Shown one piece after another: positions 16,517 through 38,674 of a DNA stretch of 64,000 nucleotides (the first letter of the stretch is position 1; every line of letters begins with the position of its first letter). Location: the NCBI GenBank assembly GCA_965200485.1, contig CBDAUD010000001.1:875597-939596 (forward strand), given 5' to 3'. This DNA comes from a bacterium (GTDB lineage: Bacteria > JAAXHH01). Position numbers and translations under genes: made by a program. The notes beneath the pieces are model-generated. The model saw nothing but the letters and a program-made list of their open reading frames with translations. It had not been told where the DNA came from and ran no database searches.

Positions 16517-18538
16517 TTACCACGTCTCTACGATATGGCCCGAGTTGGGAAACCAGATTACATCGACGCCGTAGGAAAGCGCCACGCCCAGCACATAACC
16601 CACCAGCATCCCGATGAAGAACGGTTGTGCCTGGCGATAGAGTCTCGTGCCGCCAAGTTTCAGGATCACCGCCTTGATCAGCCAGACGATGAAGAGCGAC
16701 GTGGCGATCATCCCGATACCCCAGGTTTTCGCGACTGCCCAGCCGATGGGATGCAGCGGCCACCAGTGGAAGTTGTGGTGCGCCAGGATGAGCAGCCAGG
16801 CGACGAACGCCCCGATCCCGAGGCCGGCGTACTCGCCGCCGGTCAACTGGGTCTGATTGTTGATCCACGTCGTCAGCGTTTCGTATCCCGCTTTCGCGTT
16901 GCCGAAGGCGTCGGCGAATCCGTCCGCACCGGTGGTCGTGTAACCCAGGAAGATGGTGTACACCACCGAAATGGCACCGGCGACGAGAAGCGCCGATACG
17001 ATGACGGGAAAGATGCCGCGTCGGGCGCCGCCGACCTCGTCGCCCACCTTGTTTACGTGGGCAATGGCGCACATGCCCAGCGTGCGCCAGTTCCGCGAAA
17101 AGGTCTGCGAAAGGGTCAACATGGTGAGGTCCGCCCGGTGCAGGTTTGCCGAACCAAAGGAAAAAACGGTGAAATCATGGGCATTGTAGGGCAGGTCCAG
17201 ATTGATCAGCCCCGCTTCCGCCACCACGCGGGTAACGCCCAGAAAGAGCAGCAGGCTGGTGGCCAGGAGTGTTGCCGCGGCGGCGACGGACATGCCCATG
17301 CCGATCAGAAAGAAAAACATGTATGCGATGCCTATCACAACCCCCCCCATGGCGGTCCTGTACGAGAAGAACTCCCCGGAATCGTCAATGTCCCGCCCCC
17401 GGCCGACAGCCTTTCTTACGACGTCGCAGAGGTGGCGGCGCGCCATCCACAGTCCGAAGAGGGTGTACATGAAAAAGCCGCCCAGGTGCTGGGCCGTTAC
17501 GATTTCGGTCGTCTTTGGAATGCCGAATCGGCTCATGATACCGATCTGGATCGTGGCCAGCAGGAAGAACACCCAGATACTGAACAGGATGTTCAGCTCG
17601 GTAAAGAACCCGACACCGATAAAAGCGAAATTGATCTTGAACTGAATCGGCGGAAAGGATTCGGCCAGGGTGATCGGTATGCGGTAGTCCCCGCCCAGTT
17701 TGATGGGGGGCACGACGTCCCAGTACGAGACGATGTTCCAGACGATGATAAAGAGCGGGATGGAAAATCCGTACCAGAATACCGCGGACCGGGCGACCCG
17801 GGGCAACGCGGAACCGCTTTCGTCTTCTTCGATGAGCAGCAGCGGCACGCGCGCCAGCGGAAAGGTCAGTCGCTCCCGTTCGATCCACTGCTTGCGCAGG
17901 ATCACCATGAGCGATGCGCTGGCGAAGAACAGGGCTACAAAGAACGATCCCCACCAGCCCATGGGAATGATCCAGTCTCGCCAGGGTATGGTGCCGCCCG
18001 ACGGCAGCCCCTCGTAGAACCAGTGTACCGCGTTCCGTTCGTCCGGGACGATCAGCCAGGCAGGCAGGTATTCGAAGAACAGTTCCACGTACCGGTTCTC
18101 GGAGTTGGCGTAGTAGTGGGGAATGGAGGGTATGGCAACCCAGTAGGTGGTAAAGGCCCATCCTGGAATGGCCGATGCCGTGAACACGATGAAGAAGATG
18201 ATGATCAGTTCCTGCGGGGTGAAGGCCCGCGCGGGCGCGAATCGCTTCAGCAGACCGTTCACGACGAAAACGACCAGCATGAAGGGGAAGAGCGCCGCCA
18301 TGGGCAGATGAGTAATGGAAAGGTAGGAGGAATGGGCTTCGAAGGCGGAATGAACGACCCACCAGGCCATCGACGCAGACAGGACGAGTCCGAGACCCAC
18401 CGCCCGAAGGGTCATGCCCGAAGCGAGGCCCCGGGCTCCGGCGGAAGCGCGTGTTTCGGTAGAATGGGAATCCGGCTCCCCGGATGGCGGGGAAGACCGC
18501 GGTCGGACACGCATGGATTTAGCGTTTGAGGGGGACAA
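16517..18538 (-). CDS. Large polytopic membrane protein, uncharacterised family (paralog C)
   Basis: 673-aa ORF. It is multi-TM and shares the conserved motifs of 7524-9518 (see that entry). The first about 40 residues are Ser/Pro/Arg-rich, so the real start may be the internal Met at about 18415 (MTLRAVGLGLVL...). Confidence 0.8.
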   Translation of the reverse strand: MSPSNAKSMRVRPRSSPPSGEPDSHSTETRASAGARGLASGMTLRAVGLGLVLSASMAWWVVHSAFEAHSSYLSITHLPMAALFPFMLVVFVVNGLLKRFAPARAFTPQELIIIFFIVFTASAIPGWAFTTYWVAIPSIPHYYANSENRYVELFFEYLPAWLIVPDERNAVHWFYEGLPSGGTIPWRDWIIPMGWWGSFFVALFFASASLMVILRKQWIERERLTFPLARVPLLLIEEDESGSALPRVARSAVFWYGFSIPLFIIVWNIVSYWDVVPPIKLGGDYRIPITLAESFPPIQFKINFAFIGVGFFTELNILFSIWVFFLLATIQIGIMSRFGIPKTTEIVTAQHLGGFFMYTLFGLWMARRHLCDVVRKAVGRGRDIDDSGEFFSYRTAMGGVVIGIAYMFFFLIGMGMSVAAAATLLATSLLLFLGVTRVVAEAGLINLDLPYNAHDFTVFSFGSANLHRADLTMLTLSQTFSRNWRTLGMCAIAHVNKVGDEVGGARRGIFPVIVSALLVAGAISVVYTIFLGYTTTGADGFADAFGNAKAGYETLTTWINNQTQLTGGEYAGLGIGAFVAWLLILAHHNFHWWPLHPIGWAVAKTWGIGMIATSLFIVWLIKAVILKLGGTRLYRQAQPFFIGMLVGYVLGVALSYGVDVIWFPNSGHIVETW

Positions 18539-26596: not shown

Positions 26597-27505
26597 ATGA
26601 CCGTTAACGCATCAAAATCAACCGCTGCGGGTTTCATGATGGCGATCTTGCTGCTCCTCGTTCCGGCTGCGGAGACCGCGGCGCAGGATCGGAGGACGTC
26701 CGGCTGGTATGTTTCGGTCGGTCTGGGCGGCAGCCTGGTCTCCGGACTGGATCAATCGGGTTTCAACACGGACGGCCTCTGTTACCCGACCAGCGCCTGT
26801 TTTGATCTGGATGTACCCCCGGATATTCCCGGTTACAGATGGCGTTACGACCCATCCACCGATCAGGGAATCGGTTTCGACGCCGCAGTCGGACGGGTGT
26901 TCGACCGCACCCGCCTAGAGGTCGCCTTCGCACAATGGAGAAACAACGTAGACCAGGGGCCGCCGCTTGCCGTGACATTCCTGGATGGCACGTCCGAGGG
27001 GTCCAGTTCCTTCCTCGGCCTTGGCCTGTTGGAGTCGACTTCCACGGCATTCATCGACGACCTCCTGACCAGAGCGGTCACCCTGAACGCCTACTACGAT
27101 TTGCCCTTCGGGTCGCGCAGGATAACGCCATACGTGGGTGTGGGAACCGGTATTGCTTTCGTGAACCTGACCCGGGTCTATTATCTGGGCGAATACAGCA
27201 ATCCACCGGGTTCGGGTGTCGTTTACGACCCGCCGCTGTCGTTCTACAACAACAAACAAGATACCGGATTATCCGATACGGTATTTGCGGGGCATGTATA
27301 CGCGGGAGCCGACTACAGCCTGAACGAACGTGCCACAATCGGCCTCAAGGCGGCGTACTCCAGGGTGGATGATACCGAGCACACCGGAACGTATGAATTC
27401 CATGGCTACTTCGAGACGGATCCCTCTTTTACAAACTACAACACGTTCAGCGCCACGAACCACTTTTCCCTGACGCTGAACGTGCGCGTGCTGTTTGGAA
27501 ACTGA
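26597..27505 (+). CDS. Outer-membrane beta-barrel protein (porin/OmpA-like barrel domain)
   Basis: 302 aa. Signal peptide MMAILLLLVPAAETAAQD. Amphipathic beta-strand pattern with C-terminal ...LTLNVRVLFGN ending in an aromatic-x-terminal residue. Confidence 0.7.
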   Translation: MTVNASKSTAAGFMMAILLLLVPAAETAAQDRRTSGWYVSVGLGGSLVSGLDQSGFNTDGLCYPTSACFDLDVPPDIPGYRWRYDPSTDQGIGFDAAVGRVFDRTRLEVAFAQWRNNVDQGPPLAVTFLDGTSEGSSSFLGLGLLESTSTAFIDDLLTRAVTLNAYYDLPFGSRRITPYVGVGTGIAFVNLTRVYYLGEYSNPPGSGVVYDPPLSFYNNKQDTGLSDTVFAGHVYAGADYSLNERATIGLKAAYSRVDDTEHTGTYEFHGYFETDPSFTNYNTFSATNHFSLTLNVRVLFGN

Positions 27506-27538
27506 CGCGCGAGACGGAAGGAAAACGCCGACGTGGCA

Positions 27539-27559
27539 CGGACCGGGCTGCCCGGTCCG
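27539..27559. terminator. GC-rich perfect hairpin between convergent genes (candidate bidirectional terminator)
   Basis: CGGACCGGG-CTG-CCCGGTCCG forms a 9-bp perfect stem with a 3-nt loop. It lies in the 74-nt gap between the OMP gene (+) and the aorC-like gene (-). No U-tract. Confidence 0.4.
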
Positions 27560-27579
27560 ACGCTGCCCCCGGGTTCCAA

Positions 27580-28950
27580 CTATCCCACGGAGTTGACGAA
27601 GAGCCGATGCGCGGTGCGATCCTTGCCGGGATCCTGCGTATGCTGGTAAGCACGGTGCTCGGACGGTTTGCCGAGCGCGGTGAGGGCCAGCATCTTTTCC
27701 GCGGTCTTCGTGGCTACGTAGGGCCGTCTGATGTCCGTCGGATTTGCCTGGATATGCTGCTTCCAGGCGCCCAAATCCGTTTTCGCCTGGATCAGCCCCT
27801 TGATCATCCCCATGTCGTTCAACATGGCCATATCGTCCGCGGGTCCGAGCAGGATGGCGCCGGTCATCGTGTCGCCTTCCCAGATCAGCTTCCGGTAGAC
27901 CGGACGGTTGGCATTAATGACTTCGGTGACGTCTCCGCTGCCGGACCAGTCGCCGAAACTGGCGCACTGCAGCCCGCAGACGTCCAGGATATTCATCAGC
28001 AGGCTGCCGGGATATTCCACGTCCTGGCCTGCCATGTTCGCGCCTGCGATCCGTCCGTGATCGACGGCGGTGGGCTGAATGGCGTGCACGGTCTGCCCGC
28101 CCGTGGACAGGTCCGGTCCCTCGGCCACGTCACCCGCGGCATACACATGGGCCACATTGGTCTGGCACCGGTTGTTGACCAGGACACCCTGGTTGGTTTC
28201 TATGCCCGACCCATCGAGAAAATCGATGTTGGCCTTGATCCCTGTGGCCATGATGACCACGTCCGCCCGGATGGACGATCCGTCGGACAGCCGAAGGGTC
28301 TTTGCCCCGTCGTGGTCGTGATCAATGGACTGAACGCTCACGCCGGTATGCACTTCAACGCCATTGGACTCAAGCCAGGTACCCACCAGGGAAGCGCCCT
28401 GCGCGTCGAGCATGCGGGGCAGCACCTGTCCTTCCAGTTCGATCACCTTCAGTCGGGCGCCGCGCTTGTGCATCGCGTTGAGGATGATGAAACCGATGAA
28501 CCCGGCCCCGATGAACGCCACCTCGGCATCGCTTCCAAGCGCGCCCACCGTCTGCTCCGCGTCCGCCATGGTCCAGAGATTGTGCACTCCGTCGCCATCC
28601 GAGCCGGGGATATTCAGCTTCTGGGCGGACGACCCGGTGGCGATCAGCAGGTTGTCGAAGGGCACCATCGAACCGTCGCTGAGCGATACCATGTTCGCGT
28701 GGGGATTCACCTCGGTGACGCGGACCCCGAAACGGGTTTTCACGCCCAGTCTGCCGAAATAATCGTCGTCGCCCGTATGTACCTGTCCGACCGGGATATT
28801 CCCTGAAATGTAGTAGGGCAGGGCCATGCGGGAATAGGCCGGTTCATCGGAGATCAGGGTGATGGATGCGTCCGCGTCGTAACCGCGGATCGTTTCGATG
28901 GCATTCATCCCTCCCGGTCCGCCGCCCACAATCACATGTTCTGTTGCCAT
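27580..28950 (-). CDS. aorC: FAD-dependent pyridine nucleotide-disulfide oxidoreductase (AorC-like NAD(P)-linked subunit)
   Basis: 456 aa. FAD motif VIVGGGPGGMNA. Second dinucleotide motif VAFIGAGFIGFI. It is third in the operon ferredoxin -> AOR -> this gene, 91 nt downstream of AOR. Confidence 0.8.
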   Translation of the reverse strand: MATEHVIVGGGPGGMNAIETIRGYDADASITLISDEPAYSRMALPYYISGNIPVGQVHTGDDDYFGRLGVKTRFGVRVTEVNPHANMVSLSDGSMVPFDNLLIATGSSAQKLNIPGSDGDGVHNLWTMADAEQTVGALGSDAEVAFIGAGFIGFIILNAMHKRGARLKVIELEGQVLPRMLDAQGASLVGTWLESNGVEVHTGVSVQSIDHDHDGAKTLRLSDGSSIRADVVIMATGIKANIDFLDGSGIETNQGVLVNNRCQTNVAHVYAAGDVAEGPDLSTGGQTVHAIQPTAVDHGRIAGANMAGQDVEYPGSLLMNILDVCGLQCASFGDWSGSGDVTEVINANRPVYRKLIWEGDTMTGAILLGPADDMAMLNDMGMIKGLIQAKTDLGAWKQHIQANPTDIRRPYVATKTAEKMLALTALGKPSEHRAYQHTQDPGKDRTAHRLFVNSVG

Positions 28951-29041
28951 AATCCACTCCTTGTTCCTCGGCTGAAACCCGGTGATGCCTGGACGCGCTC
29001 GGACGCGCCCGTCATCGTCCGGATTCAGGGCTGGATCGGCG

Positions 29042-30889
29042 CTAAGCCAGTCCCAGCGACGCCAGTTTCTCCTGCGTGGGTTCGCCTTCCGCGTTCCAGC
29101 CGCGGAGCTCGTAGTATTCCGGCAGCATCTCGCCGAGTCGATTCACTGCGCCCTTGGTCGGACCCGCCGGGATCGCTTCTTCGAGCAGCCGCTTCGGCAG
29201 TGTGTCGTCCTTGCCCGTGAATCCGGCCCGCTGGTTCCACATGCGTTCGATGTTCCAGACGCGCTCCCCGACTTCCAGCAATTCGGGCACCGTGTAGGCG
29301 ATGCCGGTCGCCGCTTCGAGCTGGGGCTGAATTTCATCCAGGCCCACCCCGAAAGTGAGAAACAGGCAGAGGCCCGATGCGTCGACGGTGCAGGTGGCAT
29401 CCTGGAATATCTTCGTGATCTCCGCCTTGCCTTCCGTGACGGCCGGATCCATTTTTTCCGGGATCCCCAGGATCTCGGGGGCGACCGTGTAGCTCTTCAG
29501 ATGGCAGGCGCCCCGGTTCGAGGTCGCGTAGCCCAGGCCCATACCCTGAATTGCGCGGGCGTCATAGGCCGGGAATTCCTGGCCGCGCACGCCCATGAAG
29601 AACTCGGGTCTGTTGAACTTGGCGGTCATGCGCTTCGAACCTTCGGCCAGCTCGTCGCCGAAGCCTTCGCGGTAAGCCGTGGCTTCCGTCAGGGCCACCA
29701 GTGCGTCTGCGTTTCCGAAGTTGAGCGCCATGCCGGTCTGCGCCTCGCCGACGGCGCCGGTTTCGTACAACTCCATGGCTGCGGCCAGCGTCGCCCCAAA
29801 GGAAATCGGGTCCATGCCGAGTTCATTGCACAGCGCATTGGCCTTGATGAGCGCGTCCAGATCGTCGATGCCGCAGTCCGCGCCCATCGCCCACGCGTTT
29901 TCGTATTCCGGCCCCTCTACCGCGATTTTCCAGTTGTGGGGTCGGGTGGTCACAGTAAACTTGTCCTGCGCCTCGCCCGGAAGCCGCGACACCCTGCCGC
30001 AGGCGATCGTACACCCGAAGCATGCCTTGTTGGCCACCAGGCGCGTATCGGCCAGGGTTTCCCCGCTGATGTTGTCCGCCCCTTCGAGCTGCGAGACCTG
30101 ATGGTTGTTCGTCGGCAGCGCCCCGCTCTCGTTGATGATGTTGACCAGCACGGCGGTTCCGTAGGCGGCCAGCCCCTCGCCCGTTACCGGATGCTCGGCC
30201 AGCTTGCTCTTCATCTCCCACATGGCCGACATGAACTTCTGGGGGTCTGCGATGGGCACACTCCCGGTGCCGCGTACGGCGATGGCCTTCAGGTTCTTCG
30301 AACCCATGACCGCGCCGACGCCGGATCGTCCCGCGGCCCGGTGCCGGTCGTTGACTATAGCAGCGAACCGAACGAGGTTTTCGCCCGCAGGCCCAATGCA
30401 GGTAACCACCGTATCATGCTGACCGGATTCCTCGCGGATGAGGTCGTCCGTCTCCCAGACCGTTTTTCCCCACAGATGCTCGGCGGAACAGATTCGGACG
30501 TCATCGTCGCAGATGGAGAGGTAGGACGGAACCGGCGCCTGCCCTTCCACGATCAGCATGTCGTACCCGGCGAACTTCAGTTCCGGCCCCCACAGGCCGC
30601 CCGAATTGGACGTGGTGATGGCGTTCGTCAACGCCCCCTTGGTGACCACCATGTAACGAGAACTCGTCGAAGCATTCGTGCCGGTCATGGGACCGGTCGC
30701 GAAGATCATCTTGTTTTCCGGACCCAGCGGGTCCGCCGCAGGGTCCATCTCCTCATAGAGGTATTTGGCCGCGAGGCCGCGCCCGCCAACAAAGGATTTT
30801 GCCCAATCCATGTTGAGGGGTTCTTTGGTAATCCGACCGTTGGTCAGATCAACGCGCAGGACTGTGCCTTTCCATCCACCGTTACTCAT
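29042..30889 (-). CDS. aor: Tungsten-containing aldehyde:ferredoxin oxidoreductase (AOR family)
   Basis: 615 aa. AOR N-terminal domain (MSNGGWKGTVLRVDLTNGRITKEP...FVGGRGLAAKYL). Typical length and Cys-containing cofactor segments (NKACFGCTIACGR). ATGA overlap with the upstream ferredoxin gene. Confidence 0.9.
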   Translation of the reverse strand: MSNGGWKGTVLRVDLTNGRITKEPLNMDWAKSFVGGRGLAAKYLYEEMDPAADPLGPENKMIFATGPMTGTNASTSSRYMVVTKGALTNAITTSNSGGLWGPELKFAGYDMLIVEGQAPVPSYLSICDDDVRICSAEHLWGKTVWETDDLIREESGQHDTVVTCIGPAGENLVRFAAIVNDRHRAAGRSGVGAVMGSKNLKAIAVRGTGSVPIADPQKFMSAMWEMKSKLAEHPVTGEGLAAYGTAVLVNIINESGALPTNNHQVSQLEGADNISGETLADTRLVANKACFGCTIACGRVSRLPGEAQDKFTVTTRPHNWKIAVEGPEYENAWAMGADCGIDDLDALIKANALCNELGMDPISFGATLAAAMELYETGAVGEAQTGMALNFGNADALVALTEATAYREGFGDELAEGSKRMTAKFNRPEFFMGVRGQEFPAYDARAIQGMGLGYATSNRGACHLKSYTVAPEILGIPEKMDPAVTEGKAEITKIFQDATCTVDASGLCLFLTFGVGLDEIQPQLEAATGIAYTVPELLEVGERVWNIERMWNQRAGFTGKDDTLPKRLLEEAIPAGPTKGAVNRLGEMLPEYYELRGWNAEGEPTQEKLASLGLA

Positions 30890-31377
30890 GCCGCATTCCC
30901 TCCCTCAATGGACTCCAGATAGGAAGCGTTGACCTTCTCGGCCCAACCGCCCAGCCAGTCGGCCGACTCGCTTTCGGTATACTCTATGGCACCGGTTGGG
31001 CAGGCGACCGCACAGGCGGGATTGCCGTCGCACAGATCGCATTTGAAGGCCTTCTGCGTGTCGGGATTGTAGAACACCGTGCCGAAGGGACAGGCAATGG
31101 TGCACAACCCGCATCCTACGCAATTGGCATCGCCCACGACCTTGGCCCCTGTATTCGCGTCGACGCTGATGGCGTTCACTGGGCAGGCCGTCATGCACCA
31201 GGCTTCGTCGCACTGGAAGCAGGTGTACGGGGCGTAACTGGCCTGCTCATCGAATATGTTGACGCGGATCAGCGACCGGGAGGGTTGAAACGTGCCGGTC
31301 TGCACCCAGGAACAGGCCAGCTCGCACTGCATGCACCCAGTACATTTTTCGGGAATGATGCGTAGAGATTCAGCCAT
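30886..31377 (-). CDS. aorA: 4Fe-4S ferredoxin-type electron-transfer subunit (AorA-like, multiple clusters)
   Basis: 163 aa with four Cys clusters: CTGCMQCELAC, CFQCDEAWCMTACP, CVGCGLCTIACP, CDLCDGNPACAVACP. SD-like AGGGAG lies upstream. Confidence 0.85.
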   Translation of the reverse strand: MAESLRIIPEKCTGCMQCELACSWVQTGTFQPSRSLIRVNIFDEQASYAPYTCFQCDEAWCMTACPVNAISVDANTGAKVVGDANCVGCGLCTIACPFGTVFYNPDTQKAFKCDLCDGNPACAVACPTGAIEYTESESADWLGGWAEKVNASYLESIEGGNAA

Positions 31378-31758
31378 ACGGACTCCCTTCTGTAAGGATT
31401 ACAGGCCTTTAAGACCTTTTCCTTTCTACTCAATCGTCCGGCAAAAGACAACAATAGCCTGCGGAAACGAGCCGTCTCCATACGAAATGGCCCGTCATCG
31501 CGAATGCACGGCGATTCTGATTCTTTATTACGATGATAACCAGATAAGACAAGGAGCTGCAGAATTGAACGCACGTAGGCTACGTTCATTCCTATATCTC
31601 AACCTGAGGGCTTGCCACATATATGTATATACAATATCACAAACAAAAGCAAATAGGAAATTGGCAAATTGCGTAATCGCCCGGTTTGCCTCCTTGCGGC
31701 CGGCCTTCGTTCGGATTTAGATTCGTGGTACAACACCCTGATTCAAAGGACATCACGC

Positions 31759-32208
31759 ATGTTCTGGTACATCATTCGGAAGATGATTCGCGGGAAGTTC
31801 CCGGGGGTCGCGCAGCTCTCCACCGAAGGTCTGCAGACCTGGCTGGACGAAGCGGTTGAAGGGGAGCGCCCGCTCCTCCTCGACGTGCGGGCATCGGCGG
31901 AATACGAGGTCAGCCACCTGCGGGGGGCTCTGTCGGCTCCATCCGGGGAAGCGGCCCTGCAGGTGCTGAAAGACGTGCCCACGGGTCACCCTGTCGTGCT
32001 GTATTGTTCCCTGGGCTACCGCTCGTCGGAAATGGCCGTATACCTGCAGAACGAGGGGGTTGGGAAGGTCTACAACCTGGAAGGATCCATCTTTGCCTGG
32101 GCAAACGAGGGACGGCCGGTCTATCGCGGAGACGAGCGTGTACATGTCGTCCATCCCTACGACCGGTTGTGGGGCAAACTGTTGAAGAAGGTGCTTCGCG
32201 CCCGGTAG
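31759..32208 (+). CDS. Rhodanese-domain protein
   Basis: About 150 aa from MFWYII. LLLDVRASAEYEVSHLRGA and active-site loop VVLYCSLGYRSSEMA. Confidence 0.8.
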   Translation: MFWYIIRKMIRGKFPGVAQLSTEGLQTWLDEAVEGERPLLLDVRASAEYEVSHLRGALSAPSGEAALQVLKDVPTGHPVVLYCSLGYRSSEMAVYLQNEGVGKVYNLEGSIFAWANEGRPVYRGDERVHVVHPYDRLWGKLLKKVLRAR

Positions 32209-32364
32209 GCGGCGTTTCGGTCCGGCGCTTTGTCACCGACCAAGCAACATGCCAGGCATCATATCGGTTGATTTTGTCATCGTCTCCCATGTTACTTCAT
32301 TGCGGTCCAGGCAGCCGACCAAATCGGCACAAACGTCACTCACCCATCGGAACAGGACCTGTCT

Positions 32365-33327
32365 ATGCCAAACCGAATACGCATCGTCATCCCCGGAGAC
32401 GATCCGCCGCAGATGCAGGGATCGCCTCATCTGAAACGACTTGAAGCCTGGGGCGAAGTCGTCCTGCACACCGATCGCCCCGAAACGGCGGACGAGCAGA
32501 TCAGCCGGGCGCGGGGCGCCACGGTGATGATCAATTCCCGGGGGCTTGTAAAGTGGCCCGGGGATGTCCTGCGCGCGTTGCCCGACCTGCGCATGATCGC
32601 GACCTGTTCAATCGGGGTGGACAGTTTCGATCTTTCGGCGATTCGGGACTGCGGTATCGTCCTCTCCAACCAGCCCGGACGGACGGCGCCGGTCGTCGCG
32701 GAACACGCTTTCGGCCTGATGTTCGCCATCGCAAAAAGGGCGGCCTACTTCACGGCGTCCATGAAAGCCGGCGGCTGGCCCCGGCTGGACGCCTGGTACC
32801 TCAGAGGCAAGACGCTCGGGCTCGTTGGCACCGGTCCCATTGGGTCGGAGATGGCGAGGCTGGCCAGAAGCGTGGGGATGAATGTCATCGCCTGGACGTA
32901 CAACCCCTCGGAGGAAAGAGCCAGGCGGCTCGGGGTAACCTACGTGGCGCTCGATGAATTGCTGCGGACTTCGGACGTCGTCTCACTGCATGTGATGTTG
33001 ACCGACGACAGCCGGCATATGATCGACAACGATGCCCTGGCAAGCATGAAACCCGGCGCGCTGCTCGTCAACTGCGGCCGGGGCGGCCTGGTGGATACGG
33101 ATGCGCTCGTCGCGGCGCTTCGGTCGGGGCGCCTGGGCGGTGCGGCCCTGGATGTCTTCGAATCGGAACCGCTGCCCGCGAATCATGCCCTGTTCGACAT
33201 GGACCAGGTAGTGCTCACCCCCCACTGCGCGGACATGACGCCTGAAGGCGTCGAGCTCCTGAACGAAGGGGCGGTCGACAATGTCATCGCCTTTCTGGAA
33301 GGCCACCCTCGGAACGTGGTGGTTTGA
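32365..33327 (+). CDS. D-isomer-specific 2-hydroxyacid dehydrogenase (NAD-binding; glyoxylate/hydroxypyruvate-reductase-like)
   Basis: 320 aa. NAD motif GLVGTGPIGSEMARLA. Catalytic region ...NCGRGGLVD...LDVFESEP...TPHCA. Confidence 0.88.
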   Translation: MPNRIRIVIPGDDPPQMQGSPHLKRLEAWGEVVLHTDRPETADEQISRARGATVMINSRGLVKWPGDVLRALPDLRMIATCSIGVDSFDLSAIRDCGIVLSNQPGRTAPVVAEHAFGLMFAIAKRAAYFTASMKAGGWPRLDAWYLRGKTLGLVGTGPIGSEMARLARSVGMNVIAWTYNPSEERARRLGVTYVALDELLRTSDVVSLHVMLTDDSRHMIDNDALASMKPGALLVNCGRGGLVDTDALVAALRSGRLGGAALDVFESEPLPANHALFDMDQVVLTPHCADMTPEGVELLNEGAVDNVIAFLEGHPRNVVV

Positions 33328-33419: not shown

Positions 33420-33818
<399 letters not shown>

Positions 33819-33855: not shown

Positions 33856-34545
33856 TCAAACTTGCGGCAGCGCTACTGCCTGCTTTTGAGGACTATGCGT
33901 CTGTGTGATACTATCTTTCAGCACCTCGTCCATATTATAGAAGTAATGGCCTTTCAGGTTGGGCACGTTGAAAATCAGCACTTCGCTATGAAACAACACA
34001 CCGTCATAGACATCTTTGGGCAATGCGACGATCGAACAGATTTCGGGATATTCCCCGATGGCGAACTTACGCCATCGCTTACTGGTGACCGACTGGTTCA
34101 ACCTCAACCCATAAGGCGCGAAAAGGGCGAGGGGAACATCACGGCCCCACAGCTGGACGGTTTTATGCAGCCATACTTCGGGCAACAAAGGGCGTTGACC
34201 GAAGAACCGGACAATGCGCTGCTTGCTTTCTTCGGTGATGTTGAAAGGGGGATTCGCAATCACAAGCGACGGCATTTCGATTTCGCCCGGGGGGATGCTT
34301 ATGAAATCTTGAACAACGGTATTCGGATACCCTTGATCTTCGATATCAATGCCCATGGTCTCGAAACCCGCCTGCGCAAACGGATACAGCAGGGAACCCG
34401 CCCCAACGCACGGGTCTAAAACCACGCCATCAGATGCTATATTGTCATGCAGTATATTATAAAGGAATCTACTTACCCCGGGCGGTGTGTAGACGGTCGA
34501 GTTCTTTTGAATACTGTAAAAATCGTTTCTGTCTACACGATACAT
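33856..34545 (-). CDS. Compact gamma-class N6-adenine (amino) DNA methyltransferase-like protein, no adjacent restriction enzyme
   Basis: About 230 aa from MYRVDRNDF. Motif X (STVYTPPGV), motif I (VLDPCVGAGSLL) and motif IV (VIANPPFN) occur in gamma-class order. Local GC is clearly lower than the window average. Confidence 0.65.
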   Translation of the reverse strand: MYRVDRNDFYSIQKNSTVYTPPGVSRFLYNILHDNIASDGVVLDPCVGAGSLLYPFAQAGFETMGIDIEDQGYPNTVVQDFISIPPGEIEMPSLVIANPPFNITEESKQRIVRFFGQRPLLPEVWLHKTVQLWGRDVPLALFAPYGLRLNQSVTSKRWRKFAIGEYPEICSIVALPKDVYDGVLFHSEVLIFNVPNLKGHYFYNMDEVLKDSITQTHSPQKQAVALPQV

Positions 34546-34773
34546 GGGGCGGTCTCCTTCGGGACCCGAAAAGCATGCGAACCGCAACAGGCTGAACCTA
34601 ATAGCAAGCGTTGGGCATACGCCGATGTCAAGCTTGAAACTGCGTTGTTGCTTTCATGGAAACAGCCTCGAAACGACATTTAAGATCAACCTGCAGCGTT
34701 TGGGCTGCATCAAGCCGCAGCGCCCCCCAAAAACTATTTGTCACGTAAAACAAACGGAATGTTACGAATAATA

Positions 34774-34876: not shown

Positions 34877-35545
34877 ATGCCACAGATTTTCTCCCCTGCC
34901 GCTAACGTGTGGCTCAAGGCGAGTATCGTCGGCGGGGCGCTACTTCTGGCAACCGTTTTAGGCACGATCCTCTACCTCGGTTCGACTTCCTACGTTACCC
35001 GGCAGCATCAGGTAAGGCCGCAGCCCGTTCCTTTCAGCCATCGCCATCACGTCAATCAGCTCGGCATTGATTGCCGGTACTGCCACGCGTCGGTGGAAAC
35101 GAGCGCCTTCGCCGGTCTGCCGGCGACCAAGACCTGCATGAGCTGCCACTCGCAGGTCTGGACCGATGCGCCGATGCTCGAACCGGTGCGGACCAGTTAC
35201 GCGACGGGCGAGTCGCTCGAATGGACCCGGGTGCACGACTTGCCGGACTACGTGTATTTCAATCACAGTATTCATGTAAACAAAGGCATCGGTTGCGAGT
35301 CCTGCCATGGCGCCGTCAATGAAATGGCCCTGACCTGGCAGGAGGAATCGCTGCAGATGATGTGGTGTCTCGAGTGCCACCGGCACCCCGAGTCGTTCAT
35401 TCGGGAGCGGGCGGACGTGTACAAGTTCGAATCCCAGCCCGATTACGCGCCGCCAGCCGACCAGATTGCGCTGGGAACGCAGCTGACCCGGGGCTACCAG
35501 GTCAACAAGGAACAACTGGAAGACTGTTCCATTTGCCACCGGTAG
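34877..35545 (+). CDS. actA: Alternative Complex III subunit ActA (pentahaem cytochrome c)
   Basis: 222 aa. N-terminal TM anchor. Five CxxCH sites: CRYCH, CMSCH, CESCH, CLECH, CSICH. Confidence 0.88.
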   Translation: MPQIFSPAANVWLKASIVGGALLLATVLGTILYLGSTSYVTRQHQVRPQPVPFSHRHHVNQLGIDCRYCHASVETSAFAGLPATKTCMSCHSQVWTDAPMLEPVRTSYATGESLEWTRVHDLPDYVYFNHSIHVNKGIGCESCHGAVNEMALTWQEESLQMMWCLECHRHPESFIRERADVYKFESQPDYAPPADQIALGTQLTRGYQVNKEQLEDCSICHR

Positions 35546-35579
35546 CGGGACAAAGGCGGAACAGCGACGGGACCGTACC

Positions 35580-38500
35580 ATGAATCAGACCTCGGAACAG
35601 CATAGCATGCAAGCGACGGAGCATAGCACGCAGGCGGCGGAAATGAACGTGGGAAAGAACGGTGCTCCTGCGTACTGGCGCAGCTTGGATGAGCTGGCCG
35701 ATACGGACGAGTTCCAGGCGTTCATGAAAAAGGAATTCCCGCAGCACGTGGAAGAAGTAAAGGCCAACCCGGTCAGCCGCAGGAAATTTCTGAAGCTGAT
35801 GGGCGCATCGATCGCCCTGGCAGGCGCCACCGCCTGTACGCGTCAACCGACCGAGAAGATCATCCCCTACGTGCTGGCTCCGGAGGAAATCGTCCCGGGC
35901 AAGCCGCTTTACTACGCTTCGGCCTATCTTCACGACGGGGTGGCGAACGGCATCCTGGCGGAAAGCCACATGGGCCGGCCCACCAAGGTCGAGGGCAATC
36001 CGGAACATCCGGCCAGCCTGGGGTCGACGGACGCTTTCGCCCAGGCTTCCATCCTGACCATGTATGATCCGGACCGTTCCCAGTCCGTGATCAGGCGGGG
36101 CCGGATTACCACCTACGATGCCTACCTGAACGAATTGAACGAAGCGCTGTCCAACCAGGAAGAGAAGCAGGGCGGCGGAATACGCCTGCTTACCGGCACG
36201 GTCACGTCGCCGACCCTGCACCGGCAGCTGGAGGGCCTGCTCGCCCGGTATCCCGGCGCCAGGTGGCACCAGTACGACCCGATTACCTTGGACAATGCCA
36301 GGGAAGGTTCCCGGCTTGCCTTCGGAGAAGTCGTCTCCTGTCGCTACCACATCGAAAAGGCGAACGTGATCCTGTCGCTGGACGGCGATTTCCTGACGAA
36401 CGGCCCCGGCGCGGTGCGGTATGCCCGGGATTTCGCCGGCCGCCGCGACGGCAACGACCCGGATAATATGAACAGGCTGTACGTCATCGAAAGCACACCT
36501 TCGCTGACCGGGGCGCAGGCCGATCATTTGCTCAGCCGGCGCGCGGGAGAGATCGAGGGGATCGCGCGGATGATCGCCGCGGGGCTGGGAATATCCGTGT
36601 CGACCGGAGCGGAAGTCGATGAGGACACGAAACGCTGGATATCCGCCGTGGTGGATGATCTTCGCGCGCAGGGCGGAACCTGCCTCGTGGTCACGGGCGA
36701 TCATCAGTCGCCCGCCGTGCATGCGCTCGTCCACGCGATGAACGACGCGCTGGGAAATGTGGGCAACACGATCACGTACTCCGAGTCGATCGAAGCCTCG
36801 CCCGTCAACCAGACCGAATCGATCACTGCATTGGCCAAAGACATGCGGGACGGCGCGGTCGACCTCCTGGTCGTGATCGGGGCCAACCCCGTCTACGACG
36901 CGCCGGCGGACCTGGATTTTGTCACGGCCATCGAAAAGGTGCCCATGCGCGTGCACGCCGGCCTGTACAACGACGAGACGGCTGAGCTGTCCCACTGGCA
37001 CATCCCGCTGGCGCATGACCTGGAAGCCTGGAGCGACGCGCGATCCTACGATGGTACGATCACCGTCGTTCAGCCGCTTATCGCACCCCTGTACCGTGGC
37101 AAGAGCACGCATGAAGTGGTGGCGGCGCTGACCGGCAACGCCCTGAAAAAGGGCTACGACATCGTCCGCGAGGACTGGCAGGCGCAGGCCTATCATGGAA
37201 CACAGGCTTTCGAGGTTTTCTGGCAAACCGCCGTGCACGACGGATTCATCGCCGGTTCCGCCCTGGCGCCGAAGGCCGTGTCGGTTGGCGCCATCGCCGG
37301 TTCCTTGGGCGCCGAATCCGGGCCGGAATCGGGCATGGAAATCATATTCAGAGCGGACCCGACCGTATGGGGCGGGCACTACGCCAACAACGGCTGGTTG
37401 CAGGAGCTGCCCAAGCCCCTGACCAAGCTGACTTGGGACAATGCCGCGCTTATGGGGCCTTCCGCGGCAAGACGTCTGGGAGTCGAAAACACCGACGTGG
37501 TTGAACTGGCGTATCGGGACCGCAAGGTGAGCGCCCCGGTATGGATTCTGCCCGGTCATCCGGACAACGCCGTAACGGTCCATCTCGGCTACGGCCGCCG
37601 CCGCGCGGGCGAGCTGGGCACGAACGCGGGTTTTGACGCCTACGCCATACGTCCTTCCACCAGTCCGCATTTCGGCGGAGGATTGCAGGTCACGCCCACC
37701 GGGGAGACTTTCGAGATATACAGCACGCAGGATCACCACGCCATGGAGCTCGAGGGCATGGGCAGCATGTCCCGCGACCGGAATCTGATCCGCGTGAGCG
37801 ACATCGAGACTTTCAAGGAAGACCCCCACGTAATCCAGGAGATGTGGGAGGAACCCGATCCGAAACGCAATCTCTATCCCGACGACCACGCGTACGACGG
37901 ACCCAACGCCTGGGGCATGGTCATCGACCTGAACAAGTGCAATGGCTGCAATACGTGCACCATCGCCTGCCAGTCGGAGAACAACATCTCGGTCGTGGGC
38001 AAGGAAGAAGTGGCCAACGCGCGCGAGATGCACTGGATCCGGATCGACCGCTACTACCGGGGCGATCTCGACACGCCGGAGACCTTCCACCAGCCCGTGC
38101 CGTGCATGCAATGCGAGAACGCGCCCTGCGAACTGGTCTGTCCCGTGGGCGCGACCGTGCACAGCAAAGAGGGCCTGAACGACATGGTCTACAACCGGTG
38201 CGTCGGCACGCGCTACTGTTCCAACAACTGTCCCTACAAGGTCCGGCGATTCAATTTCTACCTGTATTCCGATTTTGAAACACCAAGCCTGCAGCTGGGA
38301 CGCAACCCGGACGTGACGGTGCGCAGCCGCGGGGTCATGGAGAAGTGCACCTACTGTGTCCAGCGCATCAATGTCGCCCGAATCGAGGCGAAGAAGGAAG
38401 ATCGGGGCATCGCCGACGGCGAGATCCTTACGGCCTGCCAGCAGGCCTGTCCGTCCCAGGCGATCACCTTCGGAAACACGAAGGACAAGGACAGTGCGGT

Positions 38501-38615
38501 GTCCAGGCTGAAGTCCAGTCCATTGAACTACGGCATGCTAACGGATCTGCTTACCAAGCCTCGCACGACCTATCTTGGGCGGATACGCAATCCGAACCCG
38601 GTCCTTGAGGCGTGA
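35580..38615 (+). CDS. actB: Alternative Complex III subunit ActB (molybdopterin-oxidoreductase-like + FeS domains, Tat signal)
   Basis: 1011 aa. Tat motif SRRKFLKLMGASIALAGATAC. C-terminal Cys clusters (CNGCNTCTIACQ, CMQCENAPCELVCP, CVGTRYCSNNCP, CTYCVQR). Confidence 0.9.
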   Translation: MNQTSEQHSMQATEHSTQAAEMNVGKNGAPAYWRSLDELADTDEFQAFMKKEFPQHVEEVKANPVSRRKFLKLMGASIALAGATACTRQPTEKIIPYVLAPEEIVPGKPLYYASAYLHDGVANGILAESHMGRPTKVEGNPEHPASLGSTDAFAQASILTMYDPDRSQSVIRRGRITTYDAYLNELNEALSNQEEKQGGGIRLLTGTVTSPTLHRQLEGLLARYPGARWHQYDPITLDNAREGSRLAFGEVVSCRYHIEKANVILSLDGDFLTNGPGAVRYARDFAGRRDGNDPDNMNRLYVIESTPSLTGAQADHLLSRRAGEIEGIARMIAAGLGISVSTGAEVDEDTKRWISAVVDDLRAQGGTCLVVTGDHQSPAVHALVHAMNDALGNVGNTITYSESIEASPVNQTESITALAKDMRDGAVDLLVVIGANPVYDAPADLDFVTAIEKVPMRVHAGLYNDETAELSHWHIPLAHDLEAWSDARSYDGTITVVQPLIAPLYRGKSTHEVVAALTGNALKKGYDIVREDWQAQAYHGTQAFEVFWQTAVHDGFIAGSALAPKAVSVGAIAGSLGAESGPESGMEIIFRADPTVWGGHYANNGWLQELPKPLTKLTWDNAALMGPSAARRLGVENTDVVELAYRDRKVSAPVWILPGHPDNAVTVHLGYGRRRAGELGTNAGFDAYAIRPSTSPHFGGGLQVTPTGETFEIYSTQDHHAMELEGMGSMSRDRNLIRVSDIETFKEDPHVIQEMWEEPDPKRNLYPDDHAYDGPNAWGMVIDLNKCNGCNTCTIACQSENNISVVGKEEVANAREMHWIRIDRYYRGDLDTPETFHQPVPCMQCENAPCELVCPVGATVHSKEGLNDMVYNRCVGTRYCSNNCPYKVRRFNFYLYSDFETPSLQLGRNPDVTVRSRGVMEKCTYCVQRINVARIEAKKEDRGIADGEILTACQQACPSQAITFGNTKDKDSAVSRLKSSPLNYGMLTDLLTKPRTTYLGRIRNPNPVLEA

Positions 38616-38674
38616 GGCTGAACGCAGGATGACGACAGGCACGGCGGTCGCCGCCGTGCGGGAGGAATGGCTGC

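What the first reader, a model, noticed from the sequence alone, without database searches (positions are those of the whole stretch)
27580..31377. AorABC-like three-subunit tungsten aldehyde oxidoreductase operon in an organism that also encodes a caa3 oxidase
A 4-cluster ferredoxin (163 aa), a W-AOR (615 aa) and an FAD/NAD(P)-binding oxidoreductase (456 aa) are co-linear, with an ATGA overlap between the first two. This reproduces the FeS/W/FAD composition of the NAD-linked AOR of Aromatoleum aromaticum rather than the ferredoxin-only archaeal AORs. It sits 3.5 kb from an aerobic respiratory supercluster. This suggests a bacterial NAD(P)-coupled aldehyde-detoxifying tungsten enzyme operating in an aerobe or facultative anaerobe. 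No tungstate transporter or pterin-cofactor maturation gene lies in the window.
Basis: partly seen in the sequence, partly recalled or inferred. Interest (0 to 1): 0.55.

Follow-up and report, generated by a model that had tools for sequence, protein, structure and literature searches.

The report
Three-subunit NAD-linked tungsten aldehyde oxidoreductase operon
This is an intact aorA-aorB-aorC operon for a three-subunit, probably NAD-reducing tungsten aldehyde oxidoreductase of the already described Aromatoleum type, sitting in a marine, possibly host-associated, bacterium that can respire oxygen; it is a new member of a known and widespread enzyme class rather than a new kind of system.

Summary
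Three co-linear minus-strand genes encode a 16-Cys, four-cluster ferredoxin (163 aa), an AOR-family catalytic subunit (615 aa) and an FAD/NAD flavoprotein (456 aa). There is an ATGA overlap, a 91-nt spacer with a good ribosome-binding site, and hairpins after the last gene. Each protein's best or near-best solved relative is the matching chain of the A. aromaticum AorABC complex (PDB 8C0Z). All cluster, pterin and catalytic residues are conserved. Of 72 related loci with downstream sequence, from many phyla, 66 keep an aorC after aorB.

The literature already describes this class ("bacterial AOR subfamily", "type N", "Class III WOR") as typical of aerobic or denitrifying mesophiles.

New details: the window belongs to an uncharacterised non-proteobacterial subclade whose AorC has a 35-55 aa C-terminal extension. 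Most sister genomes carry a second catalytic gene (aorB2), which this genome most likely lost by a clean deletion. The MoaD-like aorD gene is absent.

Tungsten content, NAD coupling, filament formation and co-transcription remain untested. Verdict: new member of a known kind, modest interest.

The parts
30886..31377 (-). aorA-like gene (WorS): 163-aa polyferredoxin with 16 Cys for four [4Fe-4S] clusters and a C-terminal tail (about residues 138-163) containing the invariant W141 and W145
   Evidence: ORF. Fer4 families. Best PDB hit 8c0z_C at 5.1e-54 with all 16 Cys aligned; 56% identity. Cys count and tail alignment; invariant W141/W145 over 28 homologs.
29042..30889 (-). aorB-like gene (WorL): 615-aa catalytic subunit of the tungsten AOR family. 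[4Fe-4S] ligands are Cys290/293/297/508. Pterin motifs are N355-E-L-G-M-D360 and D503-A-S-G-L-C508. Second-shell residues are T245, E330, Y442 and H463. A clade-specific loop lies at about 304-324.
   Evidence: AFOR_N and AFOR_C. PDB hits 9mqx_D 3e-226, 8c0z_A 2e-220, 1aor 8e-202. Residue table and loop. Tree.
27580..28950 (-). aorC-like gene (WorN): 456-aa FAD/NAD flavoprotein. It has GGGPGG (FAD) and GAGFIG (NAD) motifs, Glu at the end of the second Rossmann strand (VIELE), no redox-active N-terminal Cys, a C-terminal helical bundle at 374-421, and a clade-specific extension at 422-456.
   Evidence: Pyr_redox_2 and Rubredoxin_C. 8c0z_E at 9.4e-76. Alignment. AF2 model pLDDT 88.2. Foldseek top hit 8c0z_E, TM 0.83/0.89. 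Cys positions 262, 325, 329 only.
30886..30889 (-). ATGA overlap of the aorA stop and the aorB start (translational coupling)
   Evidence: Read directly. The same junction occurs in sister loci, where aorA ends and aorB starts at 8001.
28951..29041 (-). aorB-aorC spacer (91 nt) with Shine-Dalgarno AAGGAG at 28962-28957. It is probably the scar of a deleted aorB2 gene.
   Evidence: Sequence; no terminator-like site. The 5' part is homologous to the aorB1-aorB2 spacer of L001 (85.6% over 111 nt including the aorB end). The SD and start region is homologous to the L001 aorB2-aorC junction (89% over 65 nt).
27523..27558 (-). Terminator-like region after aorC, lying between aorC and the convergent outer-membrane-protein gene. 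It has an 8-bp GC-rich hairpin GGACCGGG-CAG-CCCGGTCC (27558-27540), then a second small hairpin and a TTTTCCTTCC tract.
   Evidence: Sequence. Second hairpin reported by the scan. Function is inferred, not shown.
31378..31668 (.). AT-rich divergent intergenic region between aorA and the rhodanese gene, presumed to hold the promoter/operator. It contains the palindromic TGTATATACATATATG and a GGGAG ribosome-binding site before aorA. No known riboswitch is present.
   Evidence: Sequence. No Rfam match at E<=1. Only patchy conservation in sister loci. No sigma-70-like match.

Best explanation
The locus encodes a cytoplasmic three-subunit tungsten aldehyde oxidoreductase of the AorABC type, also called WOR clade-87 'type N' or 'Class III' WorLSN.

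The inferred mechanism follows the A. aromaticum enzyme. AorB oxidises a broad range of aldehydes to carboxylic acids at a W-bis-metallopterin site. The two electrons pass to the AorB [4Fe-4S] cluster, then along the four [4Fe-4S] clusters of AorA to the FAD of AorC, which reduces NAD+.

The complex probably has Aor(AB)nC stoichiometry, with AorA subunits stacking into a short iron-sulfur 'wire' capped by a single AorC. That stoichiometry is the least secure step.

The likely physiological role is removal or oxidation of aldehydes from amino-acid, alcohol or aromatic catabolism, with recovery of NADH that can feed the aerobic respiratory chain encoded nearby.

Shown here: gene content and order, cofactor-binding and catalytic residues, and sequence and fold relationship to AorABC. 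Inferred: tungsten content, NAD specificity, substrate range, oligomeric state, co-transcription and oxygen tolerance.
For: Domains are. Identities to AOR_Aa are 56% (AorA), 58% (AorB) and 38% (AorC). That lies between the Acidovorax and Moorella values in Table 5 of PMC6365974.

All four FeS cysteines, both pterin motifs and the four second-shell residues named in PMC12096430 (T243/E313/Y427/H448 in P. furiosus numbering) are conserved. AorA has 16 conserved Cys.

AorC keeps both GxGxxG motifs, the FAD-contacting Arg and Gln, and the acidic NAD determinant. It lacks the catalytic Cys of CoA-disulfide reductases and NADH oxidases. Its AF2 model is confident, and 8c0z_E is the top fold match, followed by ferredoxin-NAD+ reductases.

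In the NJ tree, P. furiosus AOR, Clostridium AOR, A. mobile WorL and Haloferax WOR83 form a clan (96% bootstrap) that excludes the window sequence and all bacterial AorB-type sequences. Only the latter share a 13-17 residue loop after the CxxCxxxC motif; Haloferax WOR83 has a shorter insertion in the same place.

Of 72 related loci with downstream sequence, 66 have aorC after aorB on the same strand. The operon signals are the ATGA overlap, the SD before aorC, no internal terminator and hairpins after aorC.
Against: There is no biochemical evidence. No tungstate transporter or cofactor-maturation gene lies in the window, and the MoaD-like aorD/aorE genes of the A. aromaticum operon are absent here and in the whole sister lineage.

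AorC is only 38% identical to AorC_Aa. It carries a 6-residue insertion and a 35-aa C-terminal extension in exactly the region that contacts AorA', AorA'' and AorB in the A. aromaticum filament (PMC10413684). Stoichiometry and nucleation may therefore differ.

The AorA tail conserves two Trp and a WAxK motif, but with different spacing. The AorA structure model was too poor (pLDDT 41) to confirm a helix.

AorB scores marginally higher against A. mobile WorL, the catalytic subunit of an electron-bifurcating WOR, than against AorB_Aa. However, no WorABC/Bfu genes are present.
Confidence: 0.85

Rival explanations
1. The same AorABC-type complex is present, but it works physiologically in the reductive or hydrogen-linked direction. 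It would reduce carboxylic acids to aldehydes, or oxidise H2 to make NADH, rather than detoxify aldehydes.
For: AOR_Aa reduces acids and NAD+ with H2, and the Moorella homolog was first described as a carboxylic acid reductase (PMC9295118 abstract; PMC12096430). The active-site residues are identical.
Against: With NADH as the donor, acid reduction is strongly endergonic: the aldehyde/acid couple is about -520 mV against about -280 mV for NAD (PMC12318220). The window has no hydrogenase or low-potential donor genes. It encodes an aerobic respiratory chain that would consume NADH.
Confidence: 0.07
2. AorAB alone forms a ferredoxin-linked two-subunit WOR ('Class II'). The downstream flavoprotein would then be an independent enzyme, such as a ferredoxin reductase, NADH oxidase or persulfide reductase, that happens to be adjacent.
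For: A 91-nt gap separates aorB from aorC. The next structural neighbours of AorC are free-standing ferredoxin-NAD+ reductases. Six related loci have aorAB without a detectable aorC.
Against: AorC's best sequence and fold match is the AOR_Aa subunit, by a margin of 40 orders of magnitude in E-value. aorC follows aorB in 92% of loci across many phyla, even when a second aorB intervenes. It lacks the catalytic Cys of the oxidase and persulfide reductase relatives. The spacer has an SD and no terminator.
Confidence: 0.05
3. The operon is inactive or uses another metal in this organism. It would be a relic that cannot be matured, or would be loaded with Mo, because tungstate uptake and dedicated maturation genes are missing.
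For: There is no tup/wtp, moa/moe or aorD/E gene in 64 kb. One catalytic gene (aorB2) has already been lost.
Against: All three ORFs are full length with every functional residue intact. The exact AorB protein recurs on 21 independent contigs. Sister genomes keep 89-98% identity in all three proteins, which indicates purifying selection. Transport and cofactor genes are commonly located elsewhere in genomes.
Confidence: 0.03

Closest known systems
AorABC (AOR_Aa) of Aromatoleum aromaticum EbN1, PDB 8C0Z; WOR clade 87 'type N' / 'Class III' WorLSN
   Same: Same gene order aorA-aorB-aorC. Same three subunit types. All 16+4 FeS cysteines, the pterin motifs and the catalytic residues are conserved, as are the FAD/NAD motifs. 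AorC has the same fold (TM 0.83/0.89). The loop insertion after the CxxCxxxC motif is shared. The AorA C-terminal tail is present.
   Different: Identities are only 56%, 58% and 38%, and the window falls in a separate non-proteobacterial subclade. AorC has a 6-aa insertion and a 35-aa C-terminal extension. The AorA tail has different Trp spacing and is about 13 aa longer. There are no aorD/aorE MoaD-like genes. The operon derives from a four-gene aorA-B1-B2-C form.
AOR/'carboxylic acid reductase' of Moorella thermoacetica (AOR_Mt)
   Same: Three-gene aorABC-type operon outside the Proteobacteria, at a similar distance from AOR_Aa (40/54/34% in PMC6365974 Table 5).
   Different: Moorella is a strict anaerobe and thermophile. 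According to PMC12096430 its AorA lacks the C-terminal extension, so it is predicted not to form filaments. The window's AorA has such an extension.
WorABCSL (AmWOR1) of Acetomicrobium mobile, PDB 9MQX
   Same: WorL is as similar to the window's AorB (57.7% identity, top phmmer hit) as AorB_Aa is. WorS is a homologous four-cluster ferredoxin that forms a nanowire through a C-terminal helix.
   Different: AmWOR1 is plugged by an electron-bifurcating BfuABC-type module (WorABC) that reduces both ferredoxin and NAD. The window has no such genes and has an AorC-type flavoprotein instead. AmWOR1 WorL lacks the loop insertion.
Aldehyde:ferredoxin oxidoreductase of Pyrococcus furiosus (PDB 1AOR) and other single-subunit 'type M / Class I' AORs
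   Same: Same catalytic fold and active site (54% identity). A broad-specificity aldehyde oxidation chemistry is expected.
   Different: Homodimeric or monomeric, ferredoxin-dependent, extremely oxygen-sensitive, and without AorA or AorC partners.
BmWOR of Brevibacillus massiliensis (WOR clade 83)
   Same: A precedent for a tungsten aldehyde oxidoreductase working in an obligate aerobe.
   Different: Monomeric Class I enzyme of a different clade that uses ferredoxin. The clade-83 structural representative (Haloferax WOR83) is only 41% identical to the window's AorB.
PadH/PadI subunits of NADH-dependent phenylglyoxylate dehydrogenase (NCBIfam NF045765/NF045766)
   Same: AorC resembles PadH (3e-81) and AorA resembles the N-terminal part of PadI (5e-29). 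The same 'polyferredoxin plus FAD/NAD flavoprotein' module couples a low-potential oxidoreductase to NAD.
   Different: Both scores are far below the NCBIfam cut-offs (273 against 475; 101 against 700). The catalytic partner there is a 2-oxoacid oxidoreductase, not a tungsten AOR.

Membership tests
AOR/WOR family of tungsten oxidoreductases | Catalytic subunit with both the AFOR_N and AFOR_C domains | tested here: met
   PF02730 at 4.5e-82 and PF01314 at 5.4e-145, both full length
AOR/WOR family of tungsten oxidoreductases | Four Cys ligands of the [4Fe-4S] cluster and the two pterin-binding (D/N)xxG(L/M)(D/C) motifs | tested here: met
   Cys290/293/297/508, N355..D360 and D503..C508, aligned to P. 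furiosus C288/291/295/494, D338..D343 and D489..C494
AOR/WOR family of tungsten oxidoreductases | Tungsten (not molybdenum) bound to bis-metallopterin | not testable with these tools
   Needs metal analysis of the protein. No W-uptake or cofactor genes are in the window.
AOR sensu stricto (WOR clade 87) | Closest to the AOR proper rather than FOR, GAPOR, WOR4/5 or BamB; second-shell residues Thr243, Glu313, Tyr427 and His448 conserved | tested here: met
   Bit scores are 756/737/675 for AmWOR1/AorB_Aa/PfAOR against 329 for FOR, 199 for WOR5 and 191 for BamB. T245, E330, Y442 and H463 are present. Formal placement in the published 92-clade tree was not done.
AorABC type (clade 87 'type N', 'Class III' WorLSN) | Adjacent small subunit with four [4Fe-4S] clusters (WorS/AorA) | tested here: met
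   16 Cys in four motifs, overlapping aorB by ATGA. Best PDB hit is AorA 8c0z_C at 5e-54.
AorABC type (clade 87 'type N', 'Class III' WorLSN) | Adjacent FAD/NAD(P)-binding third subunit (WorN/AorC; Pyr_redox_2-type domain) | tested here: met
   PF07992 at 1.3e-50. 8c0z_E is the best sequence hit (9e-76) and the best fold hit (TM 0.83/0.89). The gene is conserved downstream in 66 of 72 loci.
AorABC type (clade 87 'type N', 'Class III' WorLSN) | Catalytic subunit groups phylogenetically with bacterial three-subunit AorB | tested here: met
   In the NJ tree with 200 bootstraps, the non-AorABC references form a clan (96%) that excludes it. It sits in a subclade (87%) sister to the proteobacterial AorB clade. 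The loop insertion is shared.
AorABC type (clade 87 'type N', 'Class III' WorLSN) | NAD+ as electron acceptor | not testable with these tools
   Only indirect evidence: GAGFIG motif and conserved Glu at the end of the second Rossmann strand, with no Arg for a 2'-phosphate
Filament-forming AOR_Aa subclade | Conserved C-terminal ~20-aa helix of AorA that mediates AorA-AorA stacking | tested here: inconclusive
   A 26-aa tail is present with invariant W141 and W145 and a WAxK motif. It aligns to the AOR_Aa helix only with a 5-residue gap. AF2 predicts a helix at 140-159, but with pLDDT 41.
Filament-forming AOR_Aa subclade | AorC C-terminal helical domain whose last residues (P419, M420, R424) contact AorA', AorA'' and AorB | tested here: inconclusive
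   The helical bundle at 374-421 is predicted with high confidence. The terminal residues are replaced by a clade-specific, low-confidence 35-aa extension.
A. aromaticum aorABCDE operon | MoaD-like maturation genes aorD/aorE downstream of aorC | tested here: not met
   aorC is followed after 74 nt by a convergent outer-membrane-protein gene. tblastn with an aorD-like protein gives no hit in the window or sister loci, although it hits 27 loci of other lineages. This is an accessory feature, not a defining one.

The most novel reading that the evidence does not exclude
The window represents a large, biochemically unexplored, non-proteobacterial branch of NAD-linked tungsten AORs, seen here in loci labelled Latescibacterota/Gemmatimonadota, Binatia, Methylomirabilota, Myxococcales and Dehalococcoidia. 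In this branch an extended AorC C-terminus would alter how the iron-sulfur wire is nucleated. The ancestral form would carry two different catalytic subunits (AorB1 and AorB2) on one AorA wire. This genome would then be a natural single-catalyst derivative working without dedicated aorD/E maturation genes, in an oxygen-respiring, possibly sponge- or coral-associated, bacterium. That would imply an oxygen-tolerant tungsten enzyme active in oxic marine holobionts.
Probability: 0.3. Interest if true: 0.5.

Novelty: new member of a known kind. Interest (0 to 1): 0.27.

Why it matters
Only one enzyme of this class has been characterised (A. aromaticum AOR). It is of biotechnological interest because it tolerates air comparatively well, uses NAD, reduces acids with H2 and forms an iron-sulfur nanowire.

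This locus shows the class is present and conserved in an uncultured marine lineage that encodes alternative complex III and a caa3 oxidase. That adds genomic support to the view that tungsten enzymes are not confined to anaerobes.

The subclade-specific AorC extension and the gain and loss of a second catalytic subunit offer natural variants for testing how such nanowires are nucleated and decorated.

For genome annotation, the three proteins carry only generic or misleading public names, such as 'NAD(P)H-nitrite reductase large subunit' and 'CO dehydrogenase iron sulfur subunit', and could be named properly.

Tried and rejected
- **Riboswitch or other RNA upstream of aorA:** no Rfam match at E<=1 in 27000-32500, and none at gathering score in the whole window. 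The leader is only patchily conserved.
- **Promoter scan:** no sigma-70-like site upstream of aorA. The single hit lies elsewhere and is within the random expectation.
- **AorA structure prediction:** pLDDT 41 and unusable, probably because of missing clusters and a shallow alignment.
- **First phylogeny script:** the Biopython bootstrap timed out. It was redone with a numpy NJ.
- **Functional link to neighbours:** I considered a link to the rhodanese, the 2-hydroxyacid dehydrogenase and the FTR-B-like gene. They are conserved neighbours only within the sister lineage, and there they are separated from aorA by 3-4 kb of unrelated genes. They are therefore not treated as parts of the system.
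- **Bifurcating WorABCSL type:** rejected, because there are no Bfu-type genes and the third subunit is AorC-like.
- **Literature on these lineages:** searches for AOR or tungsten in Latescibacterota, Binatia and sponge symbionts found nothing relevant.

Full report
**1. Observation**

- aorA-like, 31377..30886, 163 aa
- aorB-like, 30889..29042, 615 aa
- aorC-like, 28950..27580, 456 aa

The aorA stop and the aorB start overlap as ATGA at 30886-30889. aorB and aorC are 91 nt apart. An AAGGAG Shine-Dalgarno lies 6 nt before the aorC ATG, and the gap contains no terminator-like site.

After aorC there is an 8-bp GC-rich hairpin (27558-27540). It is followed by a second small hairpin and a T-rich tract, all lying before a convergent outer-membrane-protein gene.

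Pfam assigns several 4Fe-4S families to the first protein, AFOR_N (4.5e-82) plus AFOR_C (5.4e-145) to the second, and Pyr_redox_2 (1.3e-50) plus Rubredoxin_C to the third.

The neighbouring respiratory cluster is real. ActA starts at 34877, 3.5 kb from aorA. It is followed by ActB, ActC, ActD, ActE, ActF, an SCO1-like protein, CoxII with a fused cytochrome c domain (hence caa3-type), CoxI, CoxIII and CoxIV.

I separated real genes from shadow ORFs by third-position GC. I then scanned about 60 plausible genes of the window against Pfam. None is a tungstate or molybdate transporter or a Moa/Moe/MoaD-type protein. A tblastn with a MoaD/ThiS-like aorD from a related locus also finds nothing in the window. 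All parts of the observation are therefore confirmed.

**2. What the proteins are**

Against all PDB sequences:
- AorA's best hit is chain C of 8C0Z, the A. aromaticum AOR complex (5.1e-54). The next hit is WorS of A. mobile WOR1 (6e-31).
- AorC's best hit is chain E of 8C0Z (9.4e-76). The next best hit is an NADH oxidase at 3e-36.
- AorB hits A. mobile WorL (9mqx_D, 3e-226), AorB of 8C0Z (2e-220) and P. furiosus AOR (8e-202). These are far ahead of FOR (5e-97), WOR5 (1e-57) and BamB (3e-55).

Global identities to the A. aromaticum subunits are 56% (AorA), 58% (AorB) and 38% (AorC). In Table 5 of Arndt et al. 2019 (PMC6365974), that lies between Acidovorax (69/74/62) and Moorella (40/54/34).

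In AorB the following are all present:
- the four [4Fe-4S] ligands (Cys290, 293, 297, 508)
- the two pterin-binding motifs (N355..D360 and D503..C508)
- conserved Arg78, Arg184 and Lys465
- the four second-shell residues that PMC12096430 lists as conserved in AORs (T245, E330, Y442, H463, equivalent to P. furiosus T243, E313, Y427, H448)

AorA has exactly 16 Cys in four cluster motifs, all aligned with AorA_Aa.

AorC has the FAD motif GGGPGG and the NAD motif GAGFIG. It keeps the Arg and Gln that PMC10413684 names as FAD contacts (R41 and Q294 in AOR_Aa), and a Glu at the end of the second Rossmann strand (VIELE). By analogy with ferredoxin reductases, that Glu indicates NAD rather than NADP; this step is inference. 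AorC has no Cys near position 42, so it is not a CoA-disulfide reductase or NADH oxidase/peroxidase type enzyme.

An AlphaFold2 model of AorC built on 39 homologs is confident (pLDDT 88.2, pTM 0.85). Its best PDB fold match is 8c0z_E (TM 0.83/0.89, rmsd 2.6 Å over 422 columns). The next matches are ferredoxin-NAD+ reductases such as TodA, putidaredoxin reductase and BphA4.

**3. Phylogeny and diagnostic indel**

I built a neighbour-joining tree (Kimura distances, 200 bootstraps). It held 23 catalytic subunits: the window, 17 sequences from related loci, and five PDB references.
- P. furiosus AOR, Clostridium AOR (9g7j), A. mobile WorL and Haloferax WOR83 form a clan (96%) that excludes all the AorABC-linked sequences.
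- Among the latter there is a proteobacterial clade containing AorB_Aa (100%).
- A second clade contains the window together with sequences from MAGs labelled Latescibacterota/Gemmatimonadota, Binatia, Methylomirabilota, Myxococcales and Dehalococcoidia (87%).
- A third clade holds the paralogs I call AorB2 (96%).

All AorABC-linked sequences share a 13-17 residue insertion directly after the CxxCxxxC cluster motif (window residues about 304-324...DKFTVTTRPHNWKIA...). This insertion is missing from P. furiosus AOR, Clostridium AOR and A. mobile WorL. Haloferax WOR83 has a shorter insertion at the same place.

**4. Conservation of the operon**

A scan of one genome per species (GTDB) returned 376 relatives, of which 77 loci were fetched. 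The closest, at 90-95% AorB identity, are marine MAGs labelled Latescibacterota or Gemmatimonadota. Several have names that suggest sponge or coral hosts; that inference rests on the isolate names only.

Of the 72 loci with sequence available downstream of aorB:

| Architecture | Loci |
|---|---|
| aorA-B-C | 16 |
| A-B-C-D (D = MoaD/ThiS-like, PF02597) | 16 |
| A-B-B-C | 20 complete, plus 2 cut upstream (B-B-C) |
| A-B-B-C-D | 6 |
| A-B-A-B-C-D | 5 |
| A-B-C-C | 1 |
| A-B with no detectable aorC | 6 |

In total, 66 of 72 (92%) have aorC after aorB on the same strand. This strongly supports the flavoprotein being a functional partner rather than a chance neighbour.

In the large protein collection, AorA-like proteins number 2,147 cluster representatives (E<=1e-20). 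AorC-like proteins number 3,862 (E<=1e-40). All carry generic or misleading names. The exact AorB protein of the window occurs on 21 contigs from several sequencing runs, in the same gene order.

**5. What is particular to this locus**

(a) Most sister genomes have a second AOR gene between aorB and aorC (for example L001:9959-11788, 609 aa). It is 62% identical to the window's AorB and has both AFOR domains and all key residues. This AorB2 groups with the second AOR gene of the Dehalococcoidia operons (96%), so the paralog is old.

The window's 91-nt spacer is homologous in its 5' part to the aorB1-aorB2 spacer of L001 (85.6% over 111 nt, including the end of aorB). In its last ~15 nt plus the aorC start, it is homologous to the aorB2-aorC junction (89% over 65 nt). 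Another aorB2-less genome (L012) has a spacer that instead resembles the L001 aorB2-aorC spacer.

Two different junction types are most simply explained by two independent deletions of aorB2 from an A-B1-B2-C ancestor. Insertion of aorB2 into a window-like spacer cannot be formally excluded, but it does not explain L012. No aorB2 remnant exists elsewhere in the window.

(b) The aorD-like gene that follows aorC in the Dehalococcoidia loci and in most Binatia, Methylomirabilota, Myxococcales and some Burkholderiales loci is absent from the window and from the whole sister lineage. The same kind of gene (aorD/aorE) is part of the A. aromaticum operon (PMC6365974).

(c) AorC of the window's whole subclade differs from proteobacterial AorC. 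It has a 6-residue insertion (PADDMA) and a conserved 35-55 residue C-terminal extension. In the model, the helical bundle at 374-421 is well predicted. The extension is low-confidence coil ending in a short helix at 446-454. In AOR_Aa the extreme C-terminus of AorC (P419, M420, R424) contacts AorA', AorA'' and AorB and is proposed to nucleate the filament (PMC10413684). This clade may therefore nucleate differently.

(d) AorA has a 26-residue tail after the last cluster motif. W141 and W145 in this tail are invariant over 28 homologs, and there is a WAxK motif shared with AorA_Aa. The spacing is 5 residues shorter and the end about 13 residues longer than in AorA_Aa.

PMC10413684 shows that deleting this helix in AOR_Aa abolishes filaments. 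PMC12096430 notes that Moorella AorA lacks the extension. The window's tail suggests filament capacity. My AorA model was too poor (pLDDT 41) to confirm a helix, although a helix at 140-159 was predicted.

**6. Mechanism**

By homology with AOR_Aa (PMC6365974, PMC10413684, PMC9295118), the reaction is aldehyde + H2O + NAD+ -> carboxylate + NADH + 2 H+.

Electrons flow from W-bis-metallopterin to the AorB [4Fe-4S] cluster, through the four AorA clusters to the AorC FAD, and then to NAD+. Several AorAB protomers probably share one AorC.

There is no signal peptide, so the enzyme is cytoplasmic. The NADH produced can feed the aerobic chain encoded nearby.

The steps shown here are the presence and integrity of all cofactor-binding elements and the partner genes. 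Metal identity, acceptor, substrates, stoichiometry, oxygen tolerance and co-transcription are inferred.

**7. Comparison with what is known, and novelty**

The class is already defined in three ways:
- as the 'bacterial AOR subfamily' (Arndt 2019)
- as clade 87 'type N', which makes up 26% of 444 clade-87 WORs (PMC12318220)
- as 'Class III' WorLSN, found in 9 of 92 clades and 5% of the family, with AOR_Aa the only characterised member (PMC13328260)

[quoted passage not shown] A tungsten AOR of a different class from an obligate aerobe has been purified (BmWOR, PMC9424855).

Co-occurrence with a caa3 oxidase is therefore expected rather than surprising, and the finding is a new member of a known kind.

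Three points are new, at least relative to the papers I could read:
- the recognition of a large uncharacterised non-proteobacterial subclade with an extended AorC
- the frequent tandem catalytic genes; the words 'two WorL', 'duplicat' and 'paralog' do not occur in PMC13328260
- the evidence that this window's three-gene operon is a secondary reduction

**8. Verdict**

| Item | Rating |
|---|---|
| Observation | confirmed |
| Interpretation | supported |
| Novelty | new member of a known kind |
| Interest | about 0.27 |
| Confidence in the AorABC-type NAD-linked aldehyde oxidoreductase reading | 0.85 |

Noticed in passing
L001:9959-11788; L042:9887-11734; architectures over L001-L077: 34 of 72 related loci carry two AOR catalytic genes in one operon, as A-B-B-C(-D) or A-B-A-B-C-D. 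The second copy (AorB2, about 60% identical to AorB1) forms its own old clade shared by the Latescibacterota/Gemmatimonadota-labelled MAGs and Dehalococcoidia. This suggests iron-sulfur wires decorated with two different catalytic subunits. I did not find this described in the papers read.
   Followed up: partly
window 34877-47486: A complete alternative complex III (ActABCDEF) is directly fused to a caa3 oxidase gene set (SCO1-like, CoxII-cyt c, CoxI, CoxIII, CoxIV). ActA adjacency to the FTR-B-like gene is conserved in L006, L007 and L017.
   Followed up: partly
window 12333-15901: bshC, bshB (PIG-L deacetylase) and a GT4 glycosyltransferase (bshA-like) lie in a row. The organism therefore probably makes bacillithiol as its low-molecular-weight thiol.
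   Followed up: no
window 33856-34587 (minus strand): A 243-aa ORF with a weak N6-DNA-methylase match and an atypically low third-position GC (0.58, against about 0.77 for its neighbours). It lies between the FTR-B-like gene and ActA. In L006 those two genes are only about 370 nt apart, so this ORF looks like a strain-specific insertion.
   Followed up: partly
window 47600-51650: A lower-GC stretch (0.54-0.55, against 0.60 for the window). It holds two ORFs of 379 and 339 aa with no Pfam match, small ORFs, and a retropepsin-like aspartyl protease ORF (51149-51616). It is possibly a genomic islet.
   Followed up: no
window 7524-9518 and 16517-18538 (both minus strand): Two paralogous large proteins of unknown function (DUF6785 plus DUF6784, 664 and 673 aa). 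One is next to a 1522-aa PA/peptidase-M28/FtsX-permease fusion protein (2954-7522). The other is next to a second rhodanese gene (15987-16433).
   Followed up: no
window 33420-33818 (minus strand): A ferredoxin:thioredoxin reductase catalytic-subunit-like protein (PF02943, 5e-20). It has a weak match to NCBIfam 'FtrB family double-selenoprotein'. It is a conserved neighbour (91-94% identity) in the sister genomes.
   Followed up: no
window 31378-31668: The AT-rich divergent intergenic region between aorA and the rhodanese gene contains a near-palindrome TGTATATACATATATG. A block (…TCATCGTAATAAAG…CGCGATGACGG…) is partly conserved in the sister loci. There is no Rfam family and no sigma-70-like promoter match, so the regulation is unknown.
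   Followed up: partly
L001:3736-6789 and equivalents in most sister loci: Sister genomes carry 3-4 kb of extra genes (an AAA/DUF4143 ATPase and SAM-methyltransferases) between the rhodanese gene and aorA. The window lacks these, so this genome has the most compact version of the whole neighbourhood.
   Followed up: partly
L063, L066, L067, L068, L069, L074: Six proteobacterial loci (Methylibium, Thalassospiraceae) have aorA-aorB but no detectable aorC downstream. They may correspond to the 'type U' (quinone-linked) or two-subunit forms mentioned in PMC12318220. The downstream genes were not examined.
   Followed up: no
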